Assembly: GCA_036253055.1 (NCBI GenBank)
Contig: GCA_036253055.1_4124.1
Strand: one strand, 5' to 3'
DNA length: 64,000 bases
Origin: a phage
Shown: in pieces, positions 3,430-19,357 of the stretch
Position numbering within the stretch: position 1 is the first letter of the stretch
Layout: every line of letters starts with the position of its first letter
Position numbers and translations under genes: made by a program
The notes under the pieces: model-generated
Database searches by the model: none
The model's input: the letters and a program-made list of their open reading frames with translations, nothing else
Told to the model about the DNA's origin: nothing

Positions 3430-3440
3430 ATTCTTTTTTG

Positions 3441-4831: not shown

Positions 4832-4915
4832 AATTTTGTTTCCTTTTATTGGTGGGGAGAGCTATTCTCCCCTTGATGTAAACTATTATACAGTACTGAT
4901 ATACTTTGTCAATAC

Positions 4916-5137: not shown

Positions 5138-5361
5138 CGTCTTGATTCCTTTTAGTACCAGGGAGAACCATTTCCCCCTCTCGATATAAAACATTATACG
5201 CTCATTGAGATAGTTTGCAAGTACTTTTTATAAAATAGTTTTCAGTACTGAATACTTATATAATAGATACACTTCCGCACCCTATGGGTCAGTGAGTTAT
5301 CTCTCAATGAATATATAATAGCAAAGGGACTGACTGGAGTCAATCCCTTTTTTAATCTTTT

Positions 5362-5946
5362 TTATCGTGTTATAGTTATCGCGTTAACATCACGTTTTTT
5401 ATAGTACTGATTCCAGATATTGCGGGTTAAACCGTAATCAAGTACTTTAATCAAGCCGTTGCGATCCTGGCCGATATTCTGTTTTCTGATATCTCTTATC
5501 GTTAGTGTGGATAATGTATCATCAACGTGATTGAGAGCATCAGCGAAATGGTGATGGCGTTCTACCGTATTACGTTTAATATTGTACTTTAACTCATTGC
5601 ACGCGTTTACATGCTTTACACTGCCTTTGCTTGCAGTACTCAAACGATCCATAACAATAAACAGATTATCAGGATCGCATAAATGCATATGCACTTTAGC
5701 AAAGTACTGTTTAAGGTGCGGACGGTCATAATCTAAAAAATTCCATACCTTACATTCAGTTTCATTTTGTTCTACACCCGCATCACAATTCGCGACCTTA
5801 ATCACTAACCGATCATTTAAAGCGAATACAATACGGGAAGAACCCGCACCGACGATCTCCAGTCCAGCTAACCGACAAGCTGAAAGGATCTCTTTGTTGG
5901 TTTCCATTGCATGAAGTGAACGGATGAATTTAGTATAGTTACGCAT
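5362..5946 (-). CDS. protein kinase-like protein (Ser/Thr kinase fold)
   Basis: Gly-rich loop GAGSSRIVFA, VIKV lysine, catalytic-loop-like DIRKQN, DYG (DFG-like); start moved to ATG 5944-5946 (SD AAGGAG); track start was TTG. Confidence 0.6.
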   Translation of the reverse strand: MRNYTKFIRSLHAMETNKEILSACRLAGLEIVGAGSSRIVFALNDRLVIKVANCDAGVEQNETECKVWNFLDYDRPHLKQYFAKVHMHLCDPDNLFIVMDRLSTASKGSVKHVNACNELKYNIKRNTVERHHHFADALNHVDDTLSTLTIRDIRKQNIGQDRNGLIKVLDYGLTRNIWNQYYKKRDVNAITITR

Positions 5947-5977
5947 TGTGTTGACTCCTTGAGTTAATGAAACTATA

Positions 5978-6220
5978 TTACAGTACTTTACTATCAATGG
6001 CAACTACTTTTTTTACTTGAACTGCGTGGAATACTTCACTCGTATTTTTAGTACTGAATACTTTTGCCGTACCTTGTTCGACCGCAATACGATAGCGACC
6101 GTTAACGTCCACCATATTGATAAAGTCCGGTGTACTGAATGGAGTTACCCGGCATTTAAGAACGGTTAACAGTTCCACCAGCGTTGTAGTCTCTTTGATA
6201 CGTTTTTCTAAAGTAATCAT
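5978..6220 (-). CDS. hypothetical protein
   Basis: Track start is promoter TTGACA read as TTG; ATG 6218-6220 used. Confidence 0.45.
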   Translation of the reverse strand: MITLEKRIKETTTLVELLTVLKCRVTPFSTPDFINMVDVNGRYRIAVEQGTAKVFSTKNTSEVFHAVQVKKVVAIDSKVL

Positions 6221-6273
6221 TTTGTTTTCCCCGTGTTGGTATGCATTCATAGTACTAAAACATTTGAGTACTG

Positions 6274-6528
6274 TCAACGTGATATTAGTTTTATTTTTTT
6301 ATTGTATTGTTGGTGTTCATATAGATTAATTTTTCCAGTACTCTCGATCACTATTCTATTGTTAGTGTCTACATCGATAACACGTAGTTTCCCGTTGCTT
6401 AACTTCCTGGGTAATAGACTACCATTAATAAACTCATTAGCAAGCTGTACGGCCTTTGTGATGATTCTCTGTGGGGCTTTATAGTGTACCCGTAATACAT
6501 TATCGTTTGATAGTTGAACCTTAATCAT
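6274..6528 (-). CDS. hypothetical protein
   Basis: 84 aa; ATG 6526-6528. Confidence 0.5.
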   Translation of the reverse strand: MIKVQLSNDNVLRVHYKAPQRIITKAVQLANEFINGSLLPRKLSNGKLRVIDVDTNNRIVIESTGKINLYEHQQYNKKIKLISR

Positions 6529-6590
6529 TTTGTTTATCCTATAAAAAAGGCGGGAACTATTCCCGCCGTGTTGTTAGTACTGCAAAGTTA

Positions 6591-6986
6591 TTAGATAACC
6601 TGGCGGCGTTTACTGTATACTGTTACACGGTTTCCTTTACGGTCATGACGAATCTCTTTCTGGTTACGAATCAGTTCACTTGGACGCTTAAGGTTTGCCA
6701 GGTGATCCGCGTGAGTCCATGCATTTGCGTTAACTGTAACTTCAATATCAGAACCTTTCAAAAAGTCATCTTGAGCGTTCAGTACTTCAGCCAGTTCTTG
6801 AGCTTTCTTCAGTTCTGCTTCAGTAAGTACTGGTTCAGGTGAATTCACAATATCAGAGATCTCTTTGAACTGTACCGCCCAGCGTTGTCCTTTCGGTGCA
6901 TCTTTGCCCATGTCTTTAAATGTTTCACCTTCTTCACGGGCAACGATGCGAGCTTGTTCACGGGTAGCGAAGAATTTAGTAATCAT
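6591..6986 (-). CDS. hypothetical protein, paralog of 19008..19274
   Basis: Shares FATREQARIVAR..GxTFKDMG..RWAV and C-terminal HDRKGNRVTVYS with 19008..19274; start uncertain (6995 or 6986). Confidence 0.5.
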   Translation of the reverse strand: MITKFFATREQARIVAREEGETFKDMGKDAPKGQRWAVQFKEISDIVNSPEPVLTEAELKKAQELAEVLNAQDDFLKGSDIEVTVNANAWTHADHLANLKRPSELIRNQKEIRHDRKGNRVTVYSKRRQVI

Positions 6987-7085
6987 GGTGTACATCCTAT
7001 TAGTTAAGTTAATTAGTACTACAAGTTAGAGTCTATTATAAAGTACTATCTGGGCAATGTCAAATAGTACTTTAAATGGATTCTA

Positions 7086-7409
7086 TTACATGTCTTTCTT
7101 ACGTTTTACATCGTAGTAACGAACTGTAATTTCTTTGTTGATCTCTTCCTCGATGCGGTGAATAACTTTTTCTTTCGGGTTGAAACCTATTACAGTTTCT
7201 TTAATGATCTCCAAGCCCGTGTATTCGCCTTGTGTACCGTAACCGTAAGTAAAGGTTTCATGTCCCAGGTCTTCCCAGCGGTCACCAATCAATGCAGACA
7301 CGTAGCATGAGTGGTAAGTATTGCCGTGGCTATCAGTCCACCGATTAACTTTAATGTCAAAGGAGGTTACAATTTTCAATTCGACTTTCTGGGTAAGGAT
7401 CATAGTCAT
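7086..7409 (-). CDS. hypothetical protein, paralog of 14147..14470
   Basis: Shares WTDSxGNTYHSC..FTYGY motif with 14147..14470. Confidence 0.55.
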   Translation of the reverse strand: MTMILTQKVELKIVTSFDIKVNRWTDSHGNTYHSCYVSALIGDRWEDLGHETFTYGYGTQGEYTGLEIIKETVIGFNPKEKVIHRIEEEINKEITVRYYDVKRKKDM

Positions 7410-7496
7410 TTTAATTTCTCTCTTTTTGTTAGGAGGGGAACCATTCCCCTCACTTGATGTAAACTATTATACAGTACTAAGATACTTTGTCAATAC

Positions 7497-7631
7497 TTAT
7501 TTGTTTTCTTTTCGTAATTTCTTTTCAGCTTCAACTACATTACGATTTGTGCAAACCACTTCATCGGATAAATCTAACTTCCAGCCAGCCAGGGGATTGG
7601 TTGCTTTTTTAGTGTTGTTTGCTGCTTTCAT
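7497..7631 (-). CDS. small basic protein (44 aa), paralog of 13042..13188
   Basis: Not in track (<60 aa); hand-translated MKAANNTKKATNPLAGW...; SD AAGGAAAC; promoter module upstream. Confidence 0.45.
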   Translation of the reverse strand: MKAANNTKKATNPLAGWKLDLSDEVVCTNRNVVEAEKKLRKENK

Positions 7632-7698
7632 GATGTTTCCTTATTAATTAAGATGTAAACTATTATACAGTACTAAAAACTATTGTCAAACTATTTTA

Positions 7699-7899
7699 TC
7701 AAATTGTTTCCCATTTCATGTTACCCGCTTTACGCTGTGCAACAGGAATAAACATGTTATTAATGTTACTAATATAACCGACCTGTAAGTCACGCTGTGA
7801 ACCATACGCCCGACTTGCTGCATTTTTAGCACCGCGTTCTGATTTATAAACGCCGCTGGATACTGTAAATCCTACTACACCGAAAGTAAAATGTTTCAT
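7699..7899 (-). CDS. hypothetical protein
   Basis: 66 aa; SD GAGGAA. Confidence 0.5.
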   Translation of the reverse strand: MKHFTFGVVGFTVSSGVYKSERGAKNAASRAYGSQRDLQVGYISNINNMFIPVAQRKAGNMKWETI

Positions 7900-8223
7900 T
7901 TTGTATTCCTCTTTGTGGTTGATGTAAGTATTATACTCGTTTACTTGGTATTGTCAAACTATTTTATCAGGGGAGGTTTTCGTATGTCTTACTCCTGGAC
8001 TACTTAACGGGGAGTTACTTGTTTCGTTCCCCGTCCTGATGTAAAACATTATACGCTTATCATGATACTTTGCAAGTACTTTTTAAAAAATAGTTTTCAG
8101 TACTTGATAGTACTAGCCACCAGCATATAATAGATACATTTATGCACCCTGTGGGTTAGATTGTTTCTGTGCATATATAATAGCAAAGGGACTGACCGGA
8201 GTCAATCCCTTTTTTAAATCTTT

Positions 8224-8373
8224 TTAAACTTGTTTTGGGTTGCGATATGTGATAGCGTTCGGGTACATTTGTTTAATGTTATTCCATGCCTGGTTAACAT
8301 TGTAACCACTTGATCGAATCAGTTGGTTACTACCGACACCTTGAAACACTACTTCAAATAAGAATTCTTTCAT
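8224..8373 (-). CDS. small hypothetical protein (49 aa)
   Basis: Not in track; hand-translated; SD GAGGTGA; ATGA overlap with 8370..8543. Confidence 0.4.
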   Translation of the reverse strand: MKEFLFEVVFQGVGSNQLIRSSGYNVNQAWNNIKQMYPNAITYRNPKQV

Positions 8374-8543
8374 GCTTTCACCTCGCTATCTGCTTTGCCT
8401 TTACGCCAGGCCGTTGCTAATTGTTCGCGTTGCCATAAGTCGAGTGATACGTAAAGTTTTGCATTATCACCCTTCGGATATTCGCCAGTAGTACCAATCC
8501 GATAAAACAGATCTTTCAGTACTGATAATTCTACTTGGATCAT
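8370..8543 (-). CDS. small hypothetical protein (57 aa)
   Basis: Not in track; SD AGGAG; stop overlaps next start. Confidence 0.45.
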   Translation of the reverse strand: MIQVELSVLKDLFYRIGTTGEYPKGDNAKLYVSLDLWQREQLATAWRKGKADSEVKA

Positions 8544-8632
8544 TGTATTACTCCTGATTGTGTTAGTACTTCTACGATGGCATGAATGATCATAAGTACA
8601 GCTAACACAACAATCATCGGATTCATTTGCAT
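8540..8632 (-). CDS. hydrophobic micro-protein (30 aa, single TM)
   Basis: Hand-translated MQMNPMIVVLAVLMIIHAIVEVL...; SD AGGAG 8 nt upstream; coupled to downstream gene. Confidence 0.35.
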   Translation of the reverse strand: MQMNPMIVVLAVLMIIHAIVEVLTQSGVIQ

Positions 8633-8649
8633 AAGCTGTACTCCTTCTA

Positions 8650-8862
8650 TTAATCTTTCAGCCAATGATCTTGAATGAATTTTTCACAGAATCCCTGTTT
8701 CATAGATTCTAACAGGCGTTCACGGTGAGCGGCGGCATATTGCTCAGTACTATGCGTTACGCCAGGTTGATAACGTGAAACACCGTCCGGTCCGATATAT
8801 TGAACATCCCACGGTTTTTCGTTAGTATCAGACCATTTACGAACGATTAGTTGACCTTGCAT
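8650..8862 (-). CDS. hypothetical protein
   Basis: 70 aa; SD GAGGAAA; promoter and hairpin 8880-8939. Confidence 0.55.
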   Translation of the reverse strand: MQGQLIVRKWSDTNEKPWDVQYIGPDGVSRYQPGVTHSTEQYAAAHRERLLESMKQGFCEKFIQDHWLKD

Positions 8863-8879
8863 GTTTCTTTCCTCTTAGT

Positions 8880-8899
8880 GGGGAGAATCATTTCTCCCC
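8880..8899 (-). promoter_or_regulatory. conserved 5'UTR hairpin (GGGGAGAA-loop-TTCTCCCC) between promoter and SD
   Basis: Perfect 8-bp inverted repeat; recurs with small variations downstream of most early promoters. Confidence 0.55.
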
Positions 8900-8911
8900 T
8901 TCATGTAAACT

Positions 8912-8939
8912 ATTATACAGTACTAGATTACATTGTCAA
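8912..8939 (-). promoter_or_regulatory. sigma70-like early promoter (TTGACA, 16 nt, TG-extended TATAAT)
   Basis: Minus strand TTGACA..CAGTACTGTATAAT; one of about 40 near-identical modules in the window. Confidence 0.6.
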
Positions 8940-8945
8940 TAGTTT

Positions 8946-9269
8946 TTATTCACCTTGTTTGAATTTAGTTTTCTCCATTGATTCCATGATTGCAACCAAT
9001 ACAGCATGGATCTCACTTAACGCGGCATCACTAAAAGCATTAATGAATAGGCAATCATTCTCGCGAATATTTTTAATGTACTTATCAGCAGTGGTTGCGA
9101 ATTCATTCAACGGCAGATCAAATGCTTTATCCCATAATGGATGGCGTAACTGTAACAGTACTGGATTATCACGGTCACCAGGTGAGAAAGTGCCTGTAAT
9201 GAAACATACACCAGGGATACTTTCGAATTGACAACGAACTTCTTTTGTGATAGTAGTATGAATATACAT
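8946..9269 (-). CDS. hypothetical protein
   Basis: 107 aa; SD GAGGA. Confidence 0.5.
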   Translation of the reverse strand: MYIHTTITKEVRCQFESIPGVCFITGTFSPGDRDNPVLLQLRHPLWDKAFDLPLNEFATTADKYIKNIRENDCLFINAFSDAALSEIHAVLVAIMESMEKTKFKQGE

Positions 9270-9296
9270 TTATTTTTATCCTCTATTAAATTAATA

Positions 9297-9485
9297 TTAC
9301 AGTTTATGAATCAATTCTTTATCTAAGCGATAGCGAACATTATTGATTGTAACTGCATTGTTTTTAATGCTACGCTGTACAGGTCCACCAGCAATAACAA
9401 ACGTTGCCTTATTGCCCCGAACGATGATAGCACTTCCAGGATTACCAAAATCATCTTGTACTAAAATACTTGATAAGTTTTGCAT
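9297..9485 (-). CDS. hypothetical protein
   Basis: 62 aa; SD AAGGAAAG; promoter and hairpin 9503-9561. Confidence 0.5.
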   Translation of the reverse strand: MQNLSSILVQDDFGNPGSAIIVRGNKATFVIAGGPVQRSIKNNAVTINNVRYRLDKELIHKL

Positions 9486-9533
9486 TTGTCTTTCCTTGTA
9501 GTGGGGAGAACTATTCTCCCCTTCATGTAAACT

Positions 9534-9561
9534 ATTATACAGTACTTAAAACTAAATGCAA
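9534..9561 (-). promoter_or_regulatory. sigma70-like early promoter (TTGCAT, 16 nt, TATAAT) for gene 9297..9485
   Basis: Minus strand TTGCAT-N16-TATAAT; UTR hairpin GGGGAGAACTATTCTCCCC at 9503-9521. Confidence 0.6.
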
Positions 9562-9564
9562 GTA

Positions 9565-9921
9565 CTAGGATAAAATCATTATAGGATATTCACAGTTAAT
9601 CAGTACTTCAAAACCAAAACTTTCATACCATTCTTTAAGATTAAACTCGTTATCTTCTCCCGTATCGCATTCTAAGATGATACAATCTGAATCATCGGCG
9701 GCATCAATAAAGGCATTCATTAATTCAGTACCTTCACCGTTACCGCGATTATCGGGATCAACATAAAGAGAATCAATAAACGCTACACGATCATAATCAA
9801 GATCCGGTGCAACAATGCCACGTTTAACAAACCAGTACTGCAATTGTGCTACTTTGCCTTGTACTTGATAGCCAGTGATCTCACCATTGTCTGTAGTACG
9901 CGTGATATGTTGTATACCCAT
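9565..9921 (-). CDS. GNAT-family N-acetyltransferase-like protein
   Basis: Motif-A-like DNRGNGEGTELMNAFIDAA; 118 aa; SD GAGGA. Confidence 0.5.
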   Translation of the reverse strand: MGIQHITRTTDNGEITGYQVQGKVAQLQYWFVKRGIVAPDLDYDRVAFIDSLYVDPDNRGNGEGTELMNAFIDAADDSDCIILECDTGEDNEFNLKEWYESFGFEVLINCEYPIMILS

Positions 9922-9984
9922 GATTTCAATCCTCAGTTAAGATATAAAATATTATACACTAACTAACAGCACTGTCAATACTTT

Positions 9985-10242
9985 TTATCTCATAGATCTA
10001 TGCCAACAATTACGGGGATTGCGTTTGAATATGCTATCATGATCAGCCTGGCAAGTGATGCAGTACTTACACCCCTTAACGGCCAGGCGGCGATTCTCAG
10101 GGATTTTATCGCCGCAGTCGAGGCAATGTATCAGTGATTCTATTTGTGCGTTAATTTGCGTTCTAGCGTGGTTTACAGCGGCCTGAATCACTGCGTTAAT
10201 CTCGTCTTGCTCGGCCCCGTCATTCGCGAATCCAACAGCCAT
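9985..10242 (-). CDS. TraR/DksA-family C4 zinc-finger protein
   Basis: CLDCGDKIPENRRLAVKGCKYCITCQ fits the TraR/DksA C4 zinc-finger pattern. Confidence 0.6.
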   Translation of the reverse strand: MAVGFANDGAEQDEINAVIQAAVNHARTQINAQIESLIHCLDCGDKIPENRRLAVKGCKYCITCQADHDSIFKRNPRNCWHRSMR

Positions 10243-10405
10243 TATTTTAACCTCATTATAAAAATACTATAGTACTGTAATGCTACAATAATACTACTAG
10301 TACTGATTTTATTCAAACCGTATGATACTACATATTCCCCAGCATTACCACGAATGGTAACGCCTTTGTACTTTCTATATAATTTCAACTACGTTTATTG
10401 CCTTT

Positions 10406-10476
10406 GATCAAGATTTGATCAGAATTATACGCCTTATGCTAAATTGATCCAGTACTTTTTTGATCATTTATTGATC
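10406..10476. promoter_or_regulatory. cluster of five TTGATC (GATC) sites in 71 bp
   Basis: GATC at 10406, 10417, 10446, 10462, 10473, each preceded by TT. Confidence 0.45.
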
Positions 10477-10571
10477 GATATTATATAGTTACATTTGTGC
10501 ACCCTATGGGTTAGTGACGTTCTCGTCTTGATGTAAGTATTATGCCAGTACTGGCATAATTTGTCAATAGA

Positions 10572-10769
10572 TTATTTTAACTTTTTTCTGTCATTGATTA
10601 ATGCTTTCAGTACTATACTAATGATCTGCAATGATTCATCAATGACTATAAAATTATTTTCTTTCATTAGATGATAGTTACCATTGATTGTATATTCTAA
10701 GGAGTACTGTTTACGTTTAATTTTTGATAATGTTTCTATTTGTTTTTGTACTGATTTCATGCTAATCAT
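10572..10769 (-). CDS. hypothetical protein
   Basis: 65 aa ORF. Confidence 0.45.
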   Translation of the reverse strand: MISMKSVQKQIETLSKIKRKQYSLEYTINGNYHLMKENNFIVIDESLQIISIVLKALINDRKKLK

Positions 10770-10874
10770 TGTTAAACGTCCTGTAACGCATTCTAACGAG
10801 TTAAACGGTTTAGTACTGGCATTGTATAGGGTAAAGGATTAAAGCCCACCAGCGTTAACCAGTGGGCTATAATC

Positions 10875-11018
10875 TTACATCTTGCGGATAATCTTAACAG
10901 TATCTTTCACCGATTTACCGTCTTGCTGACATTGTTCGATCATCGCGTATTGTTCTGCGGTCAGATCCTCGCCAGTTTTTGCCAGTACTGCGTCGATGAA
11001 TGAATCCAGTGCGATCAT
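10875..11018 (-). CDS. small hypothetical protein (47 aa)
   Basis: Not in track; hand-translated MIALDSFIDAVLAKTGEDL... Confidence 0.4.
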   Translation of the reverse strand: MIALDSFIDAVLAKTGEDLTAEQYAMIEQCQQDGKSVKDTVKIIRKM

Positions 11019-11117
11019 TTTGTTTCTCTCTTAGGTTAAGTTAACTACTGTTTATAAAACTTATTATACAGTACTATCAAACTATGTCAATATCTTTAAT
11101 AGTACTGGTAATATATT

Positions 11118-11297
11118 TTAGCGGTAGTCGTCGTATGCTTTATTCACCTGGCGAATGTAACTTTCAAAGGCTTCGTCTACCGTTTCATACTCCCGAACAT
11201 AATCACCATAGGAAACTACATACATCCCTTTTTGATCTTCAAACGTCATGATGATAGAATCCAGGCCGATGATTTCAGTTTTTGCGATAATAGCCAT
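11118..11297 (-). CDS. small hypothetical protein (59 aa)
   Basis: Not in track (59 aa); SD AAGGAA; hand-translated MAIIAKTEIIG... Confidence 0.45.
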   Translation of the reverse strand: MAIIAKTEIIGLDSIIMTFEDQKGMYVVSYGDYVREYETVDEAFESYIRQVNKAYDDYR

Positions 11298-11380
11298 TTT
11301 AGTATTCCTTAGTAGTGTAGTTGATAAAAGTTATTATGCCAGTACTATCAATCATTGTCAATAGTACTGTGATAATATTT

Positions 11381-11593
11381 TTAGTTAATGATAGTCAGTG
11401 TAAAATTGTAATCCCCTGCCTGGTATAGTACTTTGTCGCCGAATGTACCAACACGTTTCATATTGCAATAGATACCCATAACACTTTTTACATCTTTGAT
11501 ATTCCGAACGCCTGTGATATCCTTGTTGAAATTTTCATGTTCAGAAAATAAAACTTGTTTTGCATTTTTCAGTACAGTGCAGATATTAGCCAT
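11381..11593 (-). CDS. hypothetical protein
   Basis: 70 aa. Confidence 0.5.
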   Translation of the reverse strand: MANICTVLKNAKQVLFSEHENFNKDITGVRNIKDVKSVMGIYCNMKRVGTFGDKVLYQAGDYNFTLTIIN

Positions 11594-11686
11594 TTTGATT
11601 TCTCTCTGTTTGTGGGGAGAACTATTCTCCCCTTGATGTAACTTATTATACAGTACTATAATCTATTGTCAAACTATTTTTTAATA

Positions 11687-12028
11687 TTATTCAAAATCTT
11701 CTGGACCGGACTGATAATCATCTTCACCGTATGCACTTTCTAACTTCTCGCCAGTGTGATCATCAGTTAGTGAGTCATCCTCATAGTTCACGTCTACGCC
11801 TACAATGTAAAACTGGCTATCGTCTGGATCATTGAAATTAATTTTCTGAATGTTTACAATAACGGTATTGATGCCCAGGACACCGCCATCAGCAGTTACA
11901 AAGTACTGATATTTTTCACAACCGCCTGAATTGAAACCGTAATTAATTTCGGCCCGACCATCATTTAAACGCAGTGCCTGGGCGATGATTTCATTTTCAA
12001 AGTTAGATTGAGCAATTGAGATAGTCAT
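11687..12028 (-). CDS. highly acidic hypothetical protein (candidate DNA mimic)
   Basis: 113 aa; D/E-rich C-terminus DDSLTDDHTGEKLESAYGEDDYQSGPEDFE; SD AAGGAAAC. Confidence 0.5.
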   Translation of the reverse strand: MTISIAQSNFENEIIAQALRLNDGRAEINYGFNSGGCEKYQYFVTADGGVLGINTVIVNIQKINFNDPDDSQFYIVGVDVNYEDDSLTDDHTGEKLESAYGEDDYQSGPEDFE

Positions 12029-12238
12029 GATTTGTTTCCTTATTACCAGGGGAAACCGTTTCCCCTTTCGATGTAAAACATTATACGCTTATTGAGATAG
12101 TTTGCAAGTACTTTTTAAAAATAGTTTTCAGTACTCAAACATTATATAATAGATACACTTATGCACCCTGTGGGCTAGTGAGCTATCTCTCAATGAATAT
12201 ATAATAGCAAAATGGCTGACCGGAGTCAACCACTTTTT

Positions 12239-12382
12239 TCATTTATTTTTAGCTTTTAGAATCGCCGCCTTTCGCGTCATGCCTTGCTTGATGTATTCCT
12301 GTACTTTCGCTTTACGTGCATTCGCTTTATTTGCTTTCGTAAACGCCGAACAACTTTTATAATTTAAGCCTGTTGGATTCAT
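12239..12382 (-). CDS. small basic protein (47 aa)
   Basis: Not in track; K/A-rich; hand-translated. Confidence 0.35.
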   Translation of the reverse strand: MNPTGLNYKSCSAFTKANKANARKAKVQEYIKQGMTRKAAILKAKNK

Positions 12383-12472
12383 TTAAATCACCATAAAGAA
12401 TAGATAGGTTACTAACAATGCCGCGATCAATGCACCGACCAGGGCCGAACTATAGTAAGCTAATGATTTCAT
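12383..12472 (-). CDS. hydrophobic micro-protein (29 aa, single TM)
   Basis: Hand-translated MKSLAYYSSALVGALIAALLVTYLFFMVI; ATGA overlap with upstream gene. Confidence 0.3.
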   Translation of the reverse strand: MKSLAYYSSALVGALIAALLVTYLFFMVI

Positions 12473-12621
12473 TTTTTAGCCTGAAAGTAATGTTTAATTT
12501 GTGCGGCGGTCAGTGCACAATTACGCAGGAAGTTTTCTGTATAACTGCGGCGAGTACTGAAAGAGAATTGACCTTTGCCGTTACCGATAGTAACATCAAA
12601 CCGAGCGTTGTATTGTTTCAT
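12469..12621 (-). CDS. small hypothetical protein
   Basis: Start moved to ATG 12619-12621; track N-terminus is translated UTR hairpin. Confidence 0.45.
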   Translation of the reverse strand: MKQYNARFDVTIGNGKGQFSFSTRRSYTENFLRNCALTAAQIKHYFQAKK

Positions 12622-12707
12622 TTTGATTCTCCTGTTATTGGGGAGAACCATTTCTCCCCTCTATGTAAAACATTATACGCGTTTAAAAACTAATTGCAAG
12701 TATTATT

Positions 12708-12959
12708 TTAAACTTTGTATTTTAAACTTTGTGCGACTAATTTCGCACGGTCAATCATATTCTGCCATTTTTGGATCTCTTCTGGTAGAAAACGATATTC
12801 ACCAATTACAATAGTGATACACTGGTCAGCCTTGTCGATGTATGTGGTATCAATCTCTACTTGAACGGGTACACGTTCGCCGTACTCAGTCCCTGGGATA
12901 ATGCAATCATTATCATAAGTTACAGTAGTAGCAGTGTCTTTGATTAAAATTGTTTCCAT
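12708..12959 (-). CDS. hypothetical protein
   Basis: 83 aa; SD GAGGAAAG. Confidence 0.55.
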   Translation of the reverse strand: METILIKDTATTVTYDNDCIIPGTEYGERVPVQVEIDTTYIDKADQCITIVIGEYRFLPEEIQKWQNMIDRAKLVAQSLKYKV

Positions 12960-13041
12960 TATACTTTCCTCGTTAGGTGTAAGGGGAACGTTTTCCCCTT
13001 CATGTAAACTATTATACAGTACTAAAAACTAATTGCAAGTA

Positions 13042-13188
13042 CTATTTTTTAGATTTACGCAAACTTTCTACCATCTCAGGAGTAAGGCCAGGCGGGTAGG
13101 AAACCACTTCATCAACGAAACGTAAAGGGAATACCCCAGCGAAAGGTGAACGTGCTTTCTTAGTATTACTCTTTTTTGATGCTTTCAT
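13042..13188 (-). CDS. small basic protein (48 aa), paralog of 7497..7631
   Basis: Not in track; hand-translated MKASKKSNTKKARSPFAGV...; shares MKA..N.KKA..P.AG N-terminus with 7497..7631. Confidence 0.45.
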   Translation of the reverse strand: MKASKKSNTKKARSPFAGVFPLRFVDEVVSYPPGLTPEMVESLRKSKK

Positions 13189-13257
13189 TTCATATTCCTT
13201 AATTAGTGGGGAGAATCATTTCTCCCCTTCATGTAAAACATTATACGCGTTTAAAAA

Positions 13258-13467
13258 CTAATTGCAAGTACTATTTGAAAGTAAATGCTCATACGCTGCA
13301 TTAACTACGTTTTCAATAACCGACTGTACAGAAAGATCCCCCACGTCCTGGCTATAGTAGAAATCGCTTACAGTGGTGTCATCGTATGCAAATACTTTAC
13401 CAGGTACTGCATCAATCACATACATATTAACCTTTAAGATGTCGATCTTATCCTGTACAGTAAGCAT
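13258..13467 (-). CDS. hypothetical protein
   Basis: 69 aa; 5-nt gap from upstream gene. Confidence 0.5.
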   Translation of the reverse strand: MLTVQDKIDILKVNMYVIDAVPGKVFAYDDTTVSDFYYSQDVGDLSVQSVIENVVNAAYEHLLSNSTCN

Positions 13468-13472
13468 ATTAA

Positions 13473-13745
13473 TTAACCTTTTAAGTACTGGCTTAAGTAG
13501 TCTTGTTGATCTTCGGTGATTGCAGCCATCTTCCCTAGTACTGGATTGATGATATAATCCCCTGTAACGTCCTGTAACGCATTCTCAGGCGGTTTAACGG
13601 CTGGGGTAGCCATAGCCATTGCCTGGACTTGTTCGACGCTGTAACGCTCATAAAGGCGGCATTCTTCCGGTGTTAACATAGCATCAGTACGCTTCATCGG
13701 TTTAATGATGCTTTCGATCTCATTCAGTACTTGATTAACGTTCAT
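13473..13745 (-). CDS. hypothetical protein
   Basis: 90 aa; SD GGGGA. Confidence 0.5.
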   Translation of the reverse strand: MNVNQVLNEIESIIKPMKRTDAMLTPEECRLYERYSVEQVQAMAMATPAVKPPENALQDVTGDYIINPVLGKMAAITEDQQDYLSQYLKG

Positions 13746-13796
13746 GGTATAATCCCCAATATAAGCGGCCTAAATCGACCGCTAACGATGTTTTGA

Positions 13797-14066
13797 TTAA
13801 TAGGTGTATGGTTGACGCTCAAACAATGAATAGACGTTATACGCCCCGCTTATGGGCTTCGCTGGTAAATCAATTTTATATTGTTCACGCTTAAAGATAA
13901 TAAAACGGCAATTGTTTTTAACATCAAAATTGATTGAACGTTCCAGGAGTTTACCATCGTGCACAAATACAAGATAACCGCTTGGTACTTGTTTTGTAGA
14001 ACTGGTTGCAACCATAGACCGACGAACATGTGTACCTGCATCGATTAAAGTACTGATATTTTTCAT
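13797..14066 (-). CDS. hypothetical protein
   Basis: 89 aa; SD AGAGGA. Confidence 0.5.
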   Translation of the reverse strand: MKNISTLIDAGTHVRRSMVATSSTKQVPSGYLVFVHDGKLLERSINFDVKNNCRFIIFKREQYKIDLPAKPISGAYNVYSLFERQPYTY

Positions 14067-14146
14067 TTTACTATCCTCTTAAGTTGATTTAATTTCTTTC
14101 TCCTATGCAGACACTATATCAAAGTATCTGCATAAAGTAAAGCTAA

Positions 14147-14470
14147 TTAAAGATCTTTTTTGCGTTTAACATTCTGTACAGTACAATGCAACGGGATATT
14201 AAGATCATTGCACAAACGATAGAGGGAGGTTTCAACAGTATCAAGCCCGTCTACTGATTCCTTTAAGAGTGATACCGCCGTTTGTTGATATGCATCCTCA
14301 TAGCCATAAGTAAATGATTCAACCGCCAGATCATTCAAGCCGTTATCCAGTTCAACGCTTACATGACAAGAATGATAAGTATTGCCATATGAATCAGTCC
14401 AACGTTTACCGTCAACATTGATTGCATGGATTGCAGCCAGGGAAACGGTGTTGATGATAGTTTTAGCCAT
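14147..14470 (-). CDS. hypothetical protein, paralog of 7086..7409
   Basis: WTDSYGNTYHSC..FTYGY motif; SD AAGGAA. Confidence 0.55.
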   Translation of the reverse strand: MAKTIINTVSLAAIHAINVDGKRWTDSYGNTYHSCHVSVELDNGLNDLAVESFTYGYEDAYQQTAVSLLKESVDGLDTVETSLYRLCNDLNIPLHCTVQNVKRKKDL

Positions 14471-14561
14471 TTTAGTATTCCTTAAATTAATATGTGTCGT
14501 CTTGATAAAATCTATTATGCCAGTACTATCAAACTATGTCAATAGTACTGTGATAATATTT

Positions 14562-14774
14562 TTACTTACTTTCTTTCGCTGCTTTATATGTTGCCACTGC
14601 CATAACCACATCAGCACGAACAAAGTTTTTAACCGTGTCACTGTAATAATTGATCGCATCATCTATATCTGCGAACGTCCGATACATACCGCACCAAGAT
14701 ACTTTATAACCTTCTTTCACTTCTACCAGTTTAACGATAGTCTTGTTAACTTTGATTTTAGTAATGATAGCCAT
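14562..14774 (-). CDS. hypothetical protein
   Basis: Start moved to ATG 14772-14774; track N-terminus is translated UTR hairpin. Confidence 0.5.
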   Translation of the reverse strand: MAIITKIKVNKTIVKLVEVKEGYKVSWCGMYRTFADIDDAINYYSDTVKNFVRADVVMAVATYKAAKESK

Positions 14775-14861
14775 TTTAGTTTCCTCATTATCAGGGAGAA
14801 CCATTTCTCCCCTTGATGTAATGTATTATACTTTATTCGATTTACTTTGCAAGTACTTTTT

Positions 14862-15089
14862 TTAATTTAATTCATCCAGGCAAAGGATACGCTCAACGCC
14901 CAAATCAGTTAAACTAATCGACGGCACTTGATAGGTTTCAATGTATGCTACACTTGCCCACTGACCGAACTCATTAACGGCCCAGGTATTCATTGCATTT
15001 TGCAATTCCGCACCTGCCTTGTTAGTAATGACTGCAACTACTTGTTCGTTGCCAGTAGTACCAGATACGCGAGTAATGATAATAGCCAT
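14862..15089 (-). CDS. hypothetical protein
   Basis: Track N-terminus MFYIERGK is translated promoter; start moved to ATG 15087-15089. Confidence 0.5.
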   Translation of the reverse strand: MAIIITRVSGTTGNEQVVAVITNKAGAELQNAMNTWAVNEFGQWASVAYIETYQVPSISLTDLGVERILCLDELN

Positions 15090-15319
15090 TGTTTTGATTC
15101 CTTTGATTTGGAAGGAGAACCGTTTCCCCCTCTCGATGTAAAACATTATACGCTAATCTCTTAATCGTGCAAGTACTTTTTATTACTTTTTGCAAAATAC
15201 TTTAAACGCTCTCAATCGCATTCTAACGACCTTAACGCCACCAGCTAGGGCGATGTATCAGATAATCAGTTTAATGCGTTAGAATCGATTCTAGGCGGTG
15301 CTGGTGGACTGGAATACTA

Positions 15320-15350
15320 CAGACACAAAAAAGCCCACTGTTTAAGGTGG
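15320..15350 (-). terminator. rho-independent terminator after gene 15375..15857
   Basis: Minus strand AGCCCACC-loop-GGTGGGCT followed by TTTTTTGTGT. Confidence 0.6.
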
Positions 15351-15374
15351 GCTAGTGATTCAGTACTTTAATTG

Positions 15375-15857
15375 TTATGCTTCAACTTTGCGATGAGCTT
15401 CGATCCATTCCTCGCGAGTCATACCGCTTTCTTTGATAGCGTCCAGTACTACCGCAATGCAGTTACCGCGTACAGGAATCAAATGTTCTTCCCCGTTATC
15501 AAGGACAACAGTAACACGTTCTTGAATCCATTTTTTAGGCTTAGATTCCGGCTTATCTTCACCGTACTTAACCGCCAGGGCTTTATGTGCCATTTCAATA
15601 ACCACTTCCAGATCTAAACCAGACACCGCCGCCTGAATACTTTCTATTGTTGCTTGCAGTTCTGCTTCACGGGCTTTTTTCTGTTCTTCCAGTTCTGCTA
15701 CCTTTTTGGCTTGTAGTTCTTTCGCTTCACTGTAAGCAATGTTAAAATTGTTGCGTACTGCTTTCATGGTATCATTATCCAGGTCAGCCAGCAATTCAGC
15801 AGCAATCACAGTATCGTTAGAAATCAGTGCTTTCAGAAATGATTTTACATTAGCCAT
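15375..15857 (-). CDS. possible H-NS-like nucleoid-associated protein
   Basis: N-terminal coiled coil (ELQAKKVAELEEQKKAREAELQ); C-terminus IPVRGNCIAVVLDAIKESGMTREEWI loosely resembles the H-NS DNA-binding region; start at ATG 15855-15857 (SD GAGGA). Confidence 0.35.
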   Translation of the reverse strand: MANVKSFLKALISNDTVIAAELLADLDNDTMKAVRNNFNIAYSEAKELQAKKVAELEEQKKAREAELQATIESIQAAVSGLDLEVVIEMAHKALAVKYGEDKPESKPKKWIQERVTVVLDNGEEHLIPVRGNCIAVVLDAIKESGMTREEWIEAHRKVEA

Positions 15858-16049
15858 TTTATAAATCCTCAATTAAAGTTTAAGTTAGTTTATCAAAGTT
15901 TGTTTGACGTGTCCAGTTTTTCATTCGACTTACTGGCGGTCTACTTAATGTTCCCCGTCTTGATGTAATACATTCTACGCTTTTCCCTGGTAATGTCAAC
16001 TACTTTTTTAAAACTATTTTCAAAGTATACCAGTACTACGATACTACAA

Positions 16050-16085
16050 AAACAAAAAAGCCCACTGTATAAGTGGGCTAGTGAT
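16050..16085 (-). terminator. rho-independent terminator after gene 16097..16396
   Basis: Minus strand AGCCCAC-loop-GTGGGCT followed by TTTTTTGTTTTTG. Confidence 0.6.
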
Positions 16086-16096
16086 TCAGTACTATA

Positions 16097-16396
16097 TTAT
16101 AAACAATTAATTACGCCAGTGAATGTAACTTTCTCTGTATCCATTACAGTAACCGAACCGCGTTTACTTTTTGCATCGTAATAGATGGTCGTGCTACCCT
16201 GATCATCTTCTTCATGGTACGGGCCATTAGCAAACATTGCAGGGGCCAGTTCCAGGGATTTGGTAACGATCTCAGCCGTTTCCTCGTTAGTCATTGCAAC
16301 AGTGCACTGAATGAATTTTTCTTTCTGTACATCAACGGAAGCGTTAACAGCGAAAGAGGAAACAGATAAAGCCAGGGCGATGATTGCAGTTTTCAT
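16097..16396 (-). CDS. secreted protein (signal peptide)
   Basis: N-terminus MKTAIIALALSVSSFAVNA; SD AAGGA; terminator downstream at 16050-16085. Confidence 0.55.
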   Translation of the reverse strand: MKTAIIALALSVSSFAVNASVDVQKEKFIQCTVAMTNEETAEIVTKSLELAPAMFANGPYHEEDDQGSTTIYYDAKSKRGSVTVMDTEKVTFTGVINCL

Positions 16397-16506
16397 TTGT
16401 ATATCCTTTGTTAGTACTAGGGAGTATTCCCGATTAGATGTAAAACATTATACGCGTTTAAAAACTATTATCAAGTACTTTAATATAAAAGTATTTGAAA
16501 AAAAGT

Positions 16507-16535
16507 CTTGACAACTGCATCCAGTACTGGCATAA
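16507..16535 (+). promoter_or_regulatory. plus-strand sigma70-like promoter (TTGACA, 17 nt, CATAAT) driving a short non-coding transcript
   Basis: TTGACA 16507-16512, CATAAT 16530-16535; followed by CCCACAGGGTGC motif and hairpin 16610-16640; no ORF. Confidence 0.45.
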
Positions 16536-16641
16536 TATCTACATAAAGACGAGATAGTCACTAACCCACAGGGTGCATAGATCCGTCTATTAAATGATTC
16601 AGTACTGCAAAATAAAGGGGATCGTTTGATCCCCCTGATTA

Positions 16642-16863
16642 TTACTTAGTAAGATATAAACAAAAATCACCTTTCTTTGATACTCCGCAAGTGTAACGCG
16701 ATGAATAGTTAGAAACGTCTTGTACTTCTGCAATGACGAGCGTATCATCATTTAACTCATCGCAAAAACATACTGCGGGATCTTCTACGCCGATATTGTC
16801 GGCATGTTCCCGCATAGATTTAACCAGTGCTTCAAGCTGGGAAAGAGTAGTGATATTAGCCAT
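16642..16863 (-). CDS. hypothetical protein
   Basis: 73 aa; SD TAAGGAG. Confidence 0.55.
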   Translation of the reverse strand: MANITTLSQLEALVKSMREHADNIGVEDPAVCFCDELNDDTLVIAEVQDVSNYSSRYTCGVSKKGDFCLYLTK

Positions 16864-16947
16864 TGTAAAACTCCTTATTAGTGGGGAGAACCATTTCCCC
16901 CTTGATGTAAACTATTATATAGTACTGGAAACTATTTGCAAGTACTT

Positions 16948-17136
16948 TTAATTAAATTCCATAAAATCATTTTCAACGTGCACAACAATCTGATTATTTT
17001 TAAAGGACGCAGAAAACTCTATACAATCATAAACCGCTTTTTCTGTTACCAGACTATGAGCACCAATCGGATTAATTGGGGATTGAATTGTTTCAATCTC
17101 GTTACCCTGCTCATTTACAATTAAAATATTAAACAT
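16948..17136 (-). CDS. hypothetical protein
   Basis: 62 aa; SD AGGAG. Confidence 0.5.
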   Translation of the reverse strand: MFNILIVNEQGNEIETIQSPINPIGAHSLVTEKAVYDCIEFSASFKNNQIVVHVENDFMEFN

Positions 17137-17210
17137 TGTCGTTACTCCTGGATAGTGTTAACTCGATGTAAACAATTATACAGTACTGGAAACTAATTGC
17201 AAGTACTTTT

Positions 17211-17414
17211 TTAATTTAATTGCTTTAAAACAAAATCAAAGACACCACGCACATCATTGATCATCGCCTGGCGGTTAGCAGGTAACGCATCAGGATCGCC
17301 ACTATCCCAGGCATTAATGAAGCCACTTAAATCATGGAATACTTTATTCCGTAACCCGATCAACTGCAATTCTTTTTCTTCAAGCTCTTTGATACGTTCA
17401 ATTAAATCACTCAT
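17211..17414 (-). CDS. hypothetical protein
   Basis: Start moved to ATG 17412-17414 (SD GAGGA). Confidence 0.45.
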   Translation of the reverse strand: MSDLIERIKELEEKELQLIGLRNKVFHDLSGFINAWDSGDPDALPANRQAMINDVRGVFDFVLKQLN

Positions 17415-17431
17415 TAGATAATCCTCAGTAC

Positions 17432-17716
17432 TCAATTGTAAGATCCACATCGTTCGCAGTAGTGTTCATCTTCCTCATCTTCTACCACTTGCCCGATGAA
17501 ATGATCTACTTTCGCTTTCAGGTTATTATAATCGTTTTCTACTTCCTGTAAACGTTCCTGGTAGTATTCCAGGGCTTCAACAAATGCAGCTTCCTCTGAT
17601 TTTGCTTGCATCGATAAATTCATCCCGCGTGTTTCATCATATAGCCAAAAACCATCGGTGCATTCAGTTATAGATAACGTGTTAGTCAGTACTTTACTAT
17701 TAATTACTTTGCTCAT
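17432..17716 (-). CDS. hypothetical protein
   Basis: 94 aa; C-terminal CERCGSY; SD GAGGA. Confidence 0.5.
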   Translation of the reverse strand: MSKVINSKVLTNTLSITECTDGFWLYDETRGMNLSMQAKSEEAAFVEALEYYQERLQEVENDYNNLKAKVDHFIGQVVEDEEDEHYCERCGSYN

Positions 17717-17801
17717 TAGATAATCCTCATTAAAGGCGGGAACTATTCCCGCTCTCGATATAAAGTATTATACGTTAATCTAATTACTTTGCAAGTACTT
17801 T

Positions 17802-18038
17802 TTAGTGCTTTTTATAAAACATCTCAGCGGTGATATTTTTACCCGTTGGTTGTACTTTATCCAGGATCTTTTGGTGTGCACTACGCCCGAAAGAATAAGA
17901 ACCGTAAACCGTTAGCCAGTAGTCGCCATTTTGGTTTACATGTACCGCACAATAAGGAACGCCCCGCGAATCGTCACCAATGAAGTGTGATACTGTACCC
18001 GTTACGTTTGGCGTTGTAGTTTTGATTTGTTCGATCAT
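17802..18038 (-). CDS. hypothetical protein
   Basis: Start moved to ATG 18036-18038 (SD AGGAG); track start lies in the UTR hairpin. Confidence 0.5.
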   Translation of the reverse strand: MIEQIKTTTPNVTGTVSHFIGDDSRGVPYCAVHVNQNGDYWLTVYGSYSFGRSAHQKILDKVQPTGKNITAEMFYKKH

Positions 18039-18096
18039 TTCTCTTACTCCTGGGATATAGGCGGGAACCATTCCCCGCCATTGATTCAGTACTGAA

Positions 18097-19274: not shown

Positions 19275-19357
19275 GCTGTTACCCCTATCGTTGATGTACA
19301 AAAAGAACTTTATTATAAAGTACTATCACCGTGCAATAGTACTTTTAATCTATTCTC

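What the first reader, a model, noticed from the sequence alone, without database searches (positions are those of the whole stretch)
11687..12028. Highly acidic small proteins as candidate DNA mimics
11687..12028 ends in a long D/E-rich tail and 18097..18708 is also strongly acidic. Both are early-region genes with their own strong promoter. Acidic DNA-mimic proteins are a known phage strategy against restriction or nucleoid proteins.
Basis: inference. Interest (0 to 1): 0.4.

Follow-up and report, generated by a model that had tools for sequence, protein, structure and literature searches.

The report
Acidic early proteins in jumbo-phage terminal repeat
Two unrelated, very acidic small proteins of unknown function sit in the first-entering terminal repeat of a 350-kb E. 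coli jumbo phage; one belongs to a large undescribed family, so they are reasonable but untested candidates for inhibitors of host proteins, and nothing links them to known DNA mimics.

Summary
11687..12028(-) encodes a 113-aa protein (23 D/E, 5 K/R, net -18, pI about 3.6). 18097..18708(-) encodes a 203-aa protein (43 D/E, net -24, pI about 4.05). They rank 1st and 4th of 136 window ORFs for negative charge per residue. Each has its own sigma70-type promoter.

The window is an Asteriusvirus (PBECO4/121Q/G17-like) jumbo coliphage. Both genes lie in the roughly 20.7-kb direct terminal repeat, which is packed with strong host-type promoters. "Early" is therefore well inferred but not measured.

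The DNA-mimic reading is neither confirmed nor refuted. Neither protein has sequence or fold similarity to Ocr, ArdA or any solved structure. Charge density is about two-thirds (p1) or half (p2) that of Ocr.

The 113-aa protein is a Cys-less member of a large family with no Pfam or NCBIfam model (4,455 clusters). The family is built on a ~65-residue CxxC...CxxC-type mini-domain with position-specific conserved acidic residues and a variable acidic tail. It occurs in phage early or accessory gene arrays and in the terminal repeat of unrelated Caulobacter phages.

My best reading is an early electrostatic decoy or stoichiometric inhibitor of a host protein (confidence about 0.35). A strict Ocr-like DNA mimic has probability about 0.12.

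The parts
11687..12028 (-). p1 CDS, 113 aa, net charge -18, pI ~3.6. Member of PHROG 18238 and of a large family with no Pfam or NCBIfam model.
   Evidence: ORF; composition; PHROG E=3.9e-57; 22 close homologue clusters; 401 representatives and 4,455 clusters by profile.
11720..11908 (-). p1 residues 41-103: the conserved ~63-residue domain (YF.T.DGG.L...V..N...DP.D.QW.V.G..VNYED..L..DH.GE.IESAY), net -12. It is a Cys-less version of a CxxC...CxxC mini-domain.
   Evidence: Profile hits mostly cover profile positions 41-104. Column statistics: D47 97%, E83 98%, D90 92%, N81 and H91 near-invariant. Positions 52, 55 and 92 are Cys in 36% of members and position 89 in 75%; p1 has G, T, D, T there.
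11690..11719 (-). p1 residues 104-113 (DYQSGPEDFE): disordered acidic tail, net -4, variable in length and sequence among close homologues.
   Evidence: pLDDT <50. In alignment A1 the stretch after SAY(G/A) ranges from 0 to about 20 residues, is acidic and often carries an aromatic or hydrophobic residue.
12080..12107 (-). p1 promoter, TTGCAA-16-TATAAT (10 of 12 consensus matches).
12048..12066 (-). 5'-UTR hairpin AGGGGAAA-CGG-TTTCCCCT, starting 14 nt after the -10 hexamer. The Shine-Dalgarno AAGGAAA follows at 12035..12041.
   Evidence: Sequence read directly; module scan.
18097..18708 (-). p2 CDS, 203 aa, net -24, pI ~4.05. PHROG 5162; unrelated to p1. Invariant motifs SGFWSQGDGA (66-75), Y120-x-H122-E-N-T, Y164..L167.
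   Evidence: AF2 model pLDDT 91.9.
18741..18768 (-). p2 promoter, perfect TTGACA-16-TATAAT, 32 nt upstream of the ATG, with no UTR hairpin.
1619..21789 (.). Region equivalent to the ~20.7-kb direct terminal repeat of Asteriusvirus phages. It holds 29 of the window's 35 strong sigma70-type promoters and the eight most acidic ORFs.
   Evidence: Phage G17 has an exact 20,668-bp repeat at both ends, and it aligns to window 1619..21789. A 20,993-bp repeat was confirmed experimentally in fEgEco12 (PMC13070987). Promoters; acidity ranking.

Best explanation
p1 is an immediate-early protein of an Asteriusvirus jumbo coliphage. It is transcribed by host sigma70 RNA polymerase from its own promoter inside the direct terminal repeat, so there are two gene copies per genome on the DNA expected to enter the cell first.

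It folds into a small alpha/beta domain. The C-terminal 63 residues are a Cys-less derivative of a widespread CxxC...CxxC mini-domain. Conserved acidic residues (D47, D67, D70, D79, E83, D84, D90, E97, E102), with N81, H91 and Y100, plus a floppy acidic tail, give it a strongly negative face.

I infer that it acts stoichiometrically as an electrostatic decoy. It would dock on a basic, probably nucleic-acid-binding, surface of a host defence or DNA-metabolism protein and block it at the start of infection. That is functionally akin to an anti-restriction or anti-defence inhibitor, but it is not a rigid B-DNA look-alike of the Ocr/ArdA type.

p2 is an unrelated acidic early protein from a different family. 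Its invariant polar motif cluster suggests a specific pocket (enzyme or specific binder) rather than a charge mimic.

Shown: gene, composition, promoters, terminal-repeat position, family membership, family-wide acidity, predicted folds, lack of known relatives. Inferred: early timing, protein binding, nature of the target.
For: Real, conserved genes:
- p1 homologues are 47-98% identical in Asteriusvirus, Rak2/K64-1, Erwinia/Serratia/Yersinia jumbo phages, 142-kb coliphages and Vibrio Mardecavirus, 114 phage records in all.
- p2 has 186 homologues.

Early, first-entering location:
- Both genes lie inside the exact 20,668-bp terminal repeat of G17. The repeat was verified experimentally in fEgEco12.
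- 29 of 35 strong sigma70 promoters in the window lie there.
- Literature on related phages treats such RpoD-promoter regions of short ORFs as early, host-takeover regions (PMC5259590).
- An unrelated lineage, Caulobacter phage CcrBL9, also carries a p1-domain gene inside its annotated 22,260-bp terminal repeat.

Acidity looks selected:
- Family medians are -0.11 (p1) and -0.10 (p2) net charge per residue across homologues down to about 30% identity.
- The p1 domain alone is typically -8 to -15.
- Acidic residues after the SAY motif recur family-wide: position 102 is acidic in 87% of members and position 104 in 84% of those that extend that far.

Fold: p1 is modelled confidently as a compact domain plus a disordered tail (pLDDT 83.8, pTM 0.74).

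Contexts of distant family members: arrays of small genes in phages and mobile elements. ArdC lies 2.6 kb away. DUF932 is adjacent or near in 3 of 9 contexts. An Acb2/Tad1-type gene lies 6.5 kb away.
Against: - No binding partner, no expression data and no phenotype exist.
- The surface charge geometry could not be computed.
- The conserved D/E/N/H positions replace or flank former zinc ligands (C89 to D, C92 to T). They may serve folding or metal binding rather than partner recognition.
- The domain also occurs inside 300-800-aa multidomain proteins. That fits a generic adaptor or structural module as well as an inhibitor.
- The extreme tail is absent in some close homologues, so it cannot be essential.
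- The neighbourhood associations (ArdC, DUF932, Acb2/Tad1) come from nine hand-picked contigs and are not statistics.
- Acidic small proteins are common in phage early regions for many reasons.
Confidence: 0.35

Rival explanations
1. [quoted passage not shown]
For: - Very low pI: p1 3.58 against Ocr 3.64 by the same method.
- First-entering, host-promoter-driven position, analogous to T7 gene 0.3, the first gene after the E. coli promoters A1-A3.
- Family-wide conserved acidity.
- ArdC in the neighbourhood of a family member.
- DNA mimics are known to have unrelated folds and sequences (PMC3902945), so lack of homology does not exclude this.
Against: - Charge density is two-thirds (p1) or half (p2) that of Ocr: 20-21% acidic against 29%, and -0.16 or -0.12 against -0.24 per residue.
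- In p1, 16 of the 18 net negative charges sit in the C-terminal 73 residues. Four of them are on a disordered tail that is variable or absent in homologues.
- The acidic residues are position-specific motif residues.
- p2 has an invariant polar motif cluster typical of a pocket.
Confidence: 0.12
2. p1 is a zinc-ribbon-derived regulatory or adaptor module acting on the host or phage gene-expression or replication machinery, for example an RNA-polymerase or replisome binder. In this reading acidity is secondary.
For: - A third of family members keep CxxC...CxxC, with weak sub-threshold similarity to zinc ribbons, treble clefs and RING domains.
- A DksA-like zinc-finger gene lies in the same region at 9985..10242.
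- The domain is fused to diverse extensions in larger proteins.
- T7 gp2, an RNA-polymerase inhibitor, is also a small acidic early protein.
Against: p1 has lost all four Cys. No similarity to any characterised RNAP- or replisome-binding protein was found in Pfam, NCBIfam or the PDB.
Confidence: 0.18
3. The acidity has no specific inhibitory role. p1 and p2 are ordinary accessory proteins (metal-binding, structural, enzymatic or dispensable), and their low pI reflects fold or solubility requirements.
For: - 13 of 145 window ORFs have pI below 4.5 by the Biopython estimate, so acidic small ORFs are not rare.
- The terminal repeat as a whole is not more acidic than the rest of the window (Mann-Whitney p=0.37).
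- p1's conserved D, N, E, D, H could be a metal site.
Against: Net charge is conserved across homologues that share only about 30% identity in both families. The eight most acidic ORFs of the window all cluster in the first-entering repeat.
Confidence: 0.25
4. The p1 tail acts as an SSB-C-terminus-like short linear motif (an acidic run plus an aromatic residue). It would compete with host SSB, or with a phage single-strand-binding protein tail, for partner proteins such as exonucleases and helicases.
For: Tails in close homologues combine acidic runs with an aromatic or hydrophobic residue...EDFE...DDDRLDFFPNG...DEHLIFDEDSE...EEAAIWEDE. The T7 gp2.5 tail ends ...EEADEDGDF.
Against: The tail is not conserved and is missing in several homologues. 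No defined terminal motif is shared. This reading is purely by analogy.
Confidence: 0.07

Closest known systems
T7 Ocr (gp0.3), DNA-mimic anti-restriction and anti-BREX protein
   Same: Similar size (117 against 113 aa). Equally low pI (3.64 against 3.58). Encoded on the first-entering DNA and transcribed by host RNA polymerase from strong promoters.
ArdA (PF07275), plasmid and transposon DNA-mimic anti-restriction protein
   Same: An acidic protein of mobile elements expressed at entry. A distant p1-family member lies in a small-gene array with another anti-restriction-type gene, ArdC.
   Different: No Pfam ArdA hit for p1, p2 or their homologues. No fold match.
Zinc-ribbon / treble-clef mini-domains (CxxC...CxxC)
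   Same: 36% of p1-family members have Cys at all of positions 52, 55 and 92, and 75% at position 89. Weak sub-threshold hits to zinc-ribbon Pfam models occur in those members.
   Different: p1 has G52, T55, D89 and T92, so it has no zinc site. No Pfam or NCBIfam model reaches threshold for any member tested.
Colicin-type immunity proteins and other small acidic nuclease inhibitors (from my own knowledge, not tested)
   Same: Small acidic proteins that use a few conserved Asp and Tyr residues plus overall negative charge to block a nucleic-acid-binding protein stoichiometrically. p1 has near-invariant D47, E83, D90, H91 and Y100.
   Different: No sequence or fold relation was detected. The resemblance is conceptual only.

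Membership tests
Ocr (T7 gp0.3) family | Sequence homology to Ocr | tested here: not met
   No Pfam hit. The p1 and p2 family profiles score below 5 bits against T7 Ocr, and BLASTP gives E>0.3 in a 4-sequence database.
Ocr (T7 gp0.3) family | Elongated fold resembling bent DNA (PMC4872106), recoverable as a structural neighbour | tested here: not met
ArdA (PF07275) | Match to the ArdA profile or fold | tested here: not met
DNA mimic proteins (functional class) | High density of negative charge | tested here: inconclusive
   p1 is -0.16 per residue (20% D/E) and p2 -0.12 (21%), against Ocr at -0.24 (29%) by the same script. The pI values are comparable.
DNA mimic proteins (functional class) | [quoted passage not shown] | not testable with these tools
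DNA mimic proteins (functional class) | Binds the DNA-binding site of a target protein and competes with DNA | not testable with these tools
   Requires biochemistry or complex prediction.
p1 family (PHROG 18238; GGYP / NWED / CDH.G / SAY domain, no Pfam or NCBIfam model) | Significant match to the family profile over the ~63-residue domain | tested here: met
   PHROG 18238 E=3.9e-57. The A1 profile finds 401 representatives. The A3 profile finds 4,455 clusters. The window ORF scores 110 bits against A3, though it is itself the first row of A3.
Zinc ribbon (CxxC...CxxC) | Four zinc-ligand cysteines | tested here: not met
   p1 has G52, T55, D89 and T92 at the positions that are Cys in 36%, 36%, 75% and 36% of family members.
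PHROG 5162 (p2 family, function unknown) | Full-length match and the invariant SGFWSQGDGA / Y.HENT motifs | tested here: met
   E=7e-80 over residues 4-198. Invariant columns G57, Q71-A75, Y120, H122, Y164, L167 are present.
Phage 'DNA ligase' (label on PHROG 18452, on CcrPW and on phiK7A1 homologues) | A ligase-sized protein | tested here: not met
   The labelled relatives are small: the PHROG 18452 profile is 98 positions and the phiK7A1 entry is 93 aa. They match only the p1 domain. T7 DNA ligase is encoded by 1,080 nt, about 359 aa. I treat the label as an annotation error.

The most novel reading that the evidence does not exclude
p1 is the Cys-less phage branch of a very large family (over 4,000 clusters, no Pfam or NCBIfam model) of acidic mini-domain proteins. 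Phages and other mobile elements would place these on their first-entering DNA (terminal repeats, early small-gene arrays) as a new class of anti-defence or host-takeover inhibitor. It might be a new fold of nucleic-acid mimic, with rapidly changing acidic tails tuning target specificity.
Probability: 0.2. Interest if true: 0.65.

Novelty: new variant of a known kind. Interest (0 to 1): 0.4.

Why it matters
Most genes of jumbo phages are unannotated. The first-entering terminal repeat is the natural place to look for host-takeover and anti-defence functions.

This analysis turns a vague "acidic protein" flag into two concrete, testable candidates.

It also shows that one of them belongs to a large, widely distributed family for which I found no Pfam, NCBIfam or PDB relative and no informative source annotation. 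That family recurs in early or accessory regions, and in the terminal repeats of two unrelated jumbo-phage lineages.

If either protein proves to inhibit a defence system, it would add a new inhibitor family usable for phage engineering and defence-system mapping. If not, the result is still useful as a caution that low pI alone is a weak predictor of DNA mimicry.

Tried and rejected
- Pfam, NCBIfam and PHROGs on p1, p2 and about 80 homologues gave no functional family, only PHROGs of unknown function.
- PDB sequence searches with profiles A1, A2 and A3 gave only chance hits, E>0.07.
- Foldseek against BFVD returned only uncharacterised family members.
- The AFDB50 fold library was not available.
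- I rejected the 'DNA ligase' label on relatives on size grounds.
- The genome-collection scan with A3 failed for lack of a conserved stretch. The A4 scan gave only 14 loci in 185k species genomes, mostly MAGs.
- Cluster member names were uninformative.
- No paralogues of p1 or p2 exist in the window.
- Literature searches for transcriptomics of Asteriusvirus or phAPEC6 found none.
- The terminal-repeat region is not globally more acidic than the rest of the window (p=0.37).

Full report
WHAT THE WINDOW IS

A 2-kb stretch around the finding matches 76 phage records. The best is Escherichia phage WPEC5 (96.6% identity), followed by PBECO4, phAPEC6 and related phages. These are 350-380-kb jumbo myoviruses; G17, one of them, is filed under the genus Asteriusvirus in its record. 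In every annotated record the genes under the match are 'hypothetical protein'.

THE OBSERVATION

Both ORFs exist exactly as stated, on the minus strand.

- p1 (11687..12028) is 113 aa with 23 D/E and 5 K/R, net -18.
- p2 (18097..18708) is 203 aa with 43 D/E and 19 K/R, net -24.
- With EMBOSS pKa values the pI is 3.58 for p1 and 4.05 for p2. T7 Ocr gives 3.64 by the same script.
- The 4.05 that Biopython printed for p1 is that routine's floor.

In p1 the charge is concentrated at the C-terminus. Residues 1-40 are net -2, residues 41-103 net -12, and residues 104-113 net -4. In p2 it is spread along the chain.

Among 136 plausible ORFs of the window, p1 ranks 1st and p2 4th for negative charge per residue.

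Each gene has its own sigma70-type promoter:
- p2 has a perfect TTGACA-16-TATAAT at 18768..18741.
- p1 has TTGCAA-16-TATAAT at 12107..12080. An 8-bp GC-rich hairpin (12048..12066) and a Shine-Dalgarno AAGGAAA follow it.

GENOMIC SETTING: THE DIRECT TERMINAL REPEAT

Phage G17 (MK327931.1), deposited as a 370,817-bp linear record, carries an exact 20,668-bp repeat at both ends. That repeat aligns to window 1619..21789.

The G17 homologues of p1 (G17_00031 and G17_00644) and of p2 (G17_00049 and G17_00662) are therefore present twice, once in each repeat copy. For a sister phage, fEgEco12, a 20,993-bp repeat was found with PhageTerm and confirmed by restriction digests (PMC13070987).

Of the 35 strong TTGACA/TTGCAA-N16-TATAAT promoters in the window, 29 lie at 3.7-21.4 kb. 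Most are followed by a conserved (G/A)TTTACATC, and many by a GGGGAGAA...TTCTCCCC hairpin.

For the related phage CBB, the authors regard RpoD-like-promoter regions full of short hypothetical ORFs as the early, host-takeover region. They note that it may continue into the terminal repeat (PMC5259590).

So 'early genes with their own strong promoter' is well supported by inference. I found no transcript data for this phage group.

The eight most acidic ORFs of the window all fall in this repeat. By my arithmetic the chance is about 1.6e-4, but the test is post hoc. The repeat as a whole is not more acidic than the rest of the window (p=0.37).

WHAT p1 IS

Pfam and NCBIfam give nothing. PHROGs places p1 in phrog_18238, of unknown function.

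Close homologues (22 clusters, 47-98% identity) come from assemblies that include ~360-kb contigs, and tblastn finds the protein in 114 phage records. Those records cover:
- Asteriusvirus and Rak2/K64-1;
- Erwinia, Serratia and Yersinia jumbo phages;
- ~142-kb coliphages;
- 76-kb Vibrio Mardecavirus;
- Caulobacter giant phages.

Alignment A1 shows a conserved core (GFNSGG, NFNDPDD, VNYEDD.LTDDHTGE.LESAY). The stretch after SAY(G/A) varies from zero to about 20 residues. It is always acidic and often holds an aromatic or hydrophobic residue.

AlphaFold2 with this alignment gives a confident compact alpha/beta model (pLDDT 83.8, pTM 0.74). Only residues 104-113 are disordered.

A profile search of 1.84 billion representatives found 401 relatives. 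Most match only profile positions ~41-104, a domain of about 63 residues usually at the C-terminus of 80-140-aa proteins. Some are 300-800-aa multidomain proteins.

A search with the domain alignment A3 found 4,455 clusters. Among the 120 best listed, none has a Pfam domain or an informative name.

Column statistics over 280 members show:
- near-invariant D47, N81, E83, D90, H91 and Y100;
- frequently acidic positions 67, 70, 79, 84, 97 and 102-104;
- a CxxC...CxxC signature: Cys at positions 52, 55 and 92 in 36% of members and at position 89 in 75%.

p1 has G, T, D and T at those four positions. p1 is therefore a zinc-less derivative of a zinc-ribbon-like mini-domain. Its acidic residues are largely position-specific motif residues.

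Acidity is a family trait. The median net charge is -0.11 per residue in 220 short members, and the domain alone is typically -8 to -15.

The 'DNA ligase' label on a few small relatives (a 98-position PHROG profile and a 93-aa protein) is not credible on size grounds.

WHERE THE p1 FAMILY OCCURS

In Caulobacter phage CcrBL9, an unrelated lineage, a protein with the domain (gp005) lies inside the annotated 22,260-bp terminal repeat. In the Erwinia, Serratia and Yersinia jumbo phages the gene lies 5-6 kb from the record start.

Nine metagenomic or genomic contexts of distant members are all arrays of small genes in phages or mobile elements:
- ArdC lies 2.6 kb downstream in one.
- DUF932 is adjacent in two and near in a third.
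- PF27050 is adjacent or near in three.
- An Acb2/Tad1-type gene lies 6.5 kb away in one.

These fit an accessory or counter-defence neighbourhood, but they are anecdotes, not statistics. Only 14 loci were found in one genome per 185,579 species using one motif pattern, and most are MAG contigs. That is compatible with a family carried mainly by phages and mobile elements, but the scan was too narrow to establish it.

WHAT p2 IS

p2 is unrelated to p1. It belongs to PHROG 5162, of unknown function. It has 186 homologues in Asteriusvirus, ~135-kb coliphages, Erwinia and Yersinia jumbo phages and many metagenomic phage contigs.

The AF2 model is very confident (pLDDT 91.9). It is an alpha/beta globule with a 36-residue helix.

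Invariant columns (G57, S66-G-F-W-S-Q-G-D-G-A75, Y120, H122, Y164, L167) point to a specific pocket or interface. Acidity is again family-wide, with a median of -0.10 per residue.

THE DNA-MIMIC HYPOTHESIS

Points in favour:
- very low pI;
- a first-entering, host-transcribed position analogous to T7 gene 0.3;
- acidity conserved across each family;
- mimics are known to have unrelated folds and sequences, so lack of homology is not decisive.

Points against:
- Charge density is two-thirds (p1) or half (p2) that of Ocr. The values are 20-21% acidic against 29%, and -0.16 or -0.12 against -0.24 per residue. Ocr has 34 acidic and 6 basic residues (PMC4872106).
- p1's charge sits in a small motif-bearing domain plus a dispensable floppy tail.
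- Conserved acidic positions are specific rather than diffuse.
- Neither model resembles any known mimic.

The decisive test, surface electrostatics on coordinates, could not be run because coordinates are not exposed. The hypothesis is neither confirmed nor refuted.

MOST LIKELY MECHANISM (INFERENCE)

p1 is made immediately after DNA entry. It acts as a stoichiometric electrostatic decoy that docks on a basic, probably nucleic-acid-binding, surface of a host defence or DNA-metabolism protein. Binding would use its conserved acidic face and be helped by the acidic tail. This works like an anti-restriction or anti-defence inhibitor without being an Ocr-type rigid DNA look-alike. My confidence is about 0.35.

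Rivals and rough confidences:
- strict DNA mimic, 0.12;
- zinc-ribbon-derived regulator or adaptor for transcription or replication, 0.18;
- acidity incidental to another role, including metal binding or, for p2, enzymatic activity, 0.25;
- SSB-tail-like linear motif, 0.07.

NOVELTY AND VERDICT

Small acidic early phage proteins that inhibit host factors are a known kind. Neither protein belongs to any characterised family. The p1 domain family has no Pfam or NCBIfam model despite thousands of members.

I rate this as a new variant of a known kind, conditional on function, with interest 0.4. It is a sound experimental lead rather than a surprise.

Noticed in passing
window 3695..21425, minus strand: There is a repeated promoter/5'-UTR module in front of nearly every small gene. 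It reads TTGACA or TTGCAA-N16-TATAAT, then a conserved (G/A)TTTACATC, then often a GGGGAGAA-loop-TTCTCCCC hairpin starting about 11-15 nt after the -10 hexamer, then the SD. 29 of the window's 35 such promoters lie here. The hairpins may stabilise the mRNAs or be a regulatory site. G17 annotators labelled some hairpins in this region as terminators.
   Followed up: partly
window 1619..21789: This stretch corresponds to the ~20.7-kb direct terminal repeat of Asteriusvirus. The window runs straight through its left boundary (1..1618 aligns to the unique DNA left of G17's right-hand repeat copy), so the source assembly has the repeat collapsed or permuted.
   Followed up: yes
window 9565..9921 (-): A third very acidic protein (118 aa, net -16). 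It matches PHROG 'acetyltransferase' families only over residues 40-106, so it may be a truncated GNAT-like protein.
   Followed up: partly
window 17432..17716 (-): A fourth acidic early protein (94 aa, net -12, PHROG 19040 of unknown function) ending in ...HYCERCGSYN. Together with p1, p2 and 9565..9921 it makes the four most acidic ORFs of the window, all in the terminal repeat.
   Followed up: no
window 26191..39155 (+): An array of ten paralogous ORFs (about 74-433 aa, 24-88% identity). G17 annotates predicted terminators after some of the corresponding genes, and its record notes weak similarity of one to a 'putative DNA condensation protein' of 121Q.
   Followed up: no
window 65..1551 (-), 22627..23755 (-), 24623..25187 (-): Tandem arrays of small paralogous genes: six of ~70 aa, five of ~61 aa and three of ~60 aa, flanking the terminal-repeat region.
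   Followed up: no
L003 8782..9831; L032 5779..6924; L022 7374..8459: A DUF932 (PF06067) gene lies adjacent to or within about 1.2 kb of distant p1-family genes in three independent contigs. PF27050 (Phage_P22_Y8K6) is adjacent or near in three others. This may be a conserved gene neighbourhood worth a proper statistical test.
   Followed up: partly
L028 2902..3558 (Caulobacter phage CcrBL9 gp005): A 218-aa protein with the p1 domain at its C-terminus lies inside the annotated 22,260-bp terminal repeat of an unrelated giant siphovirus. This parallels the position in Asteriusvirus.
   Followed up: partly
window 9985..10242 (-): A DksA/TraR-like C4 zinc-finger protein (PHROG 54) is encoded in the early terminal-repeat region. 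It is a plausible modulator of host RNA polymerase.
   Followed up: no
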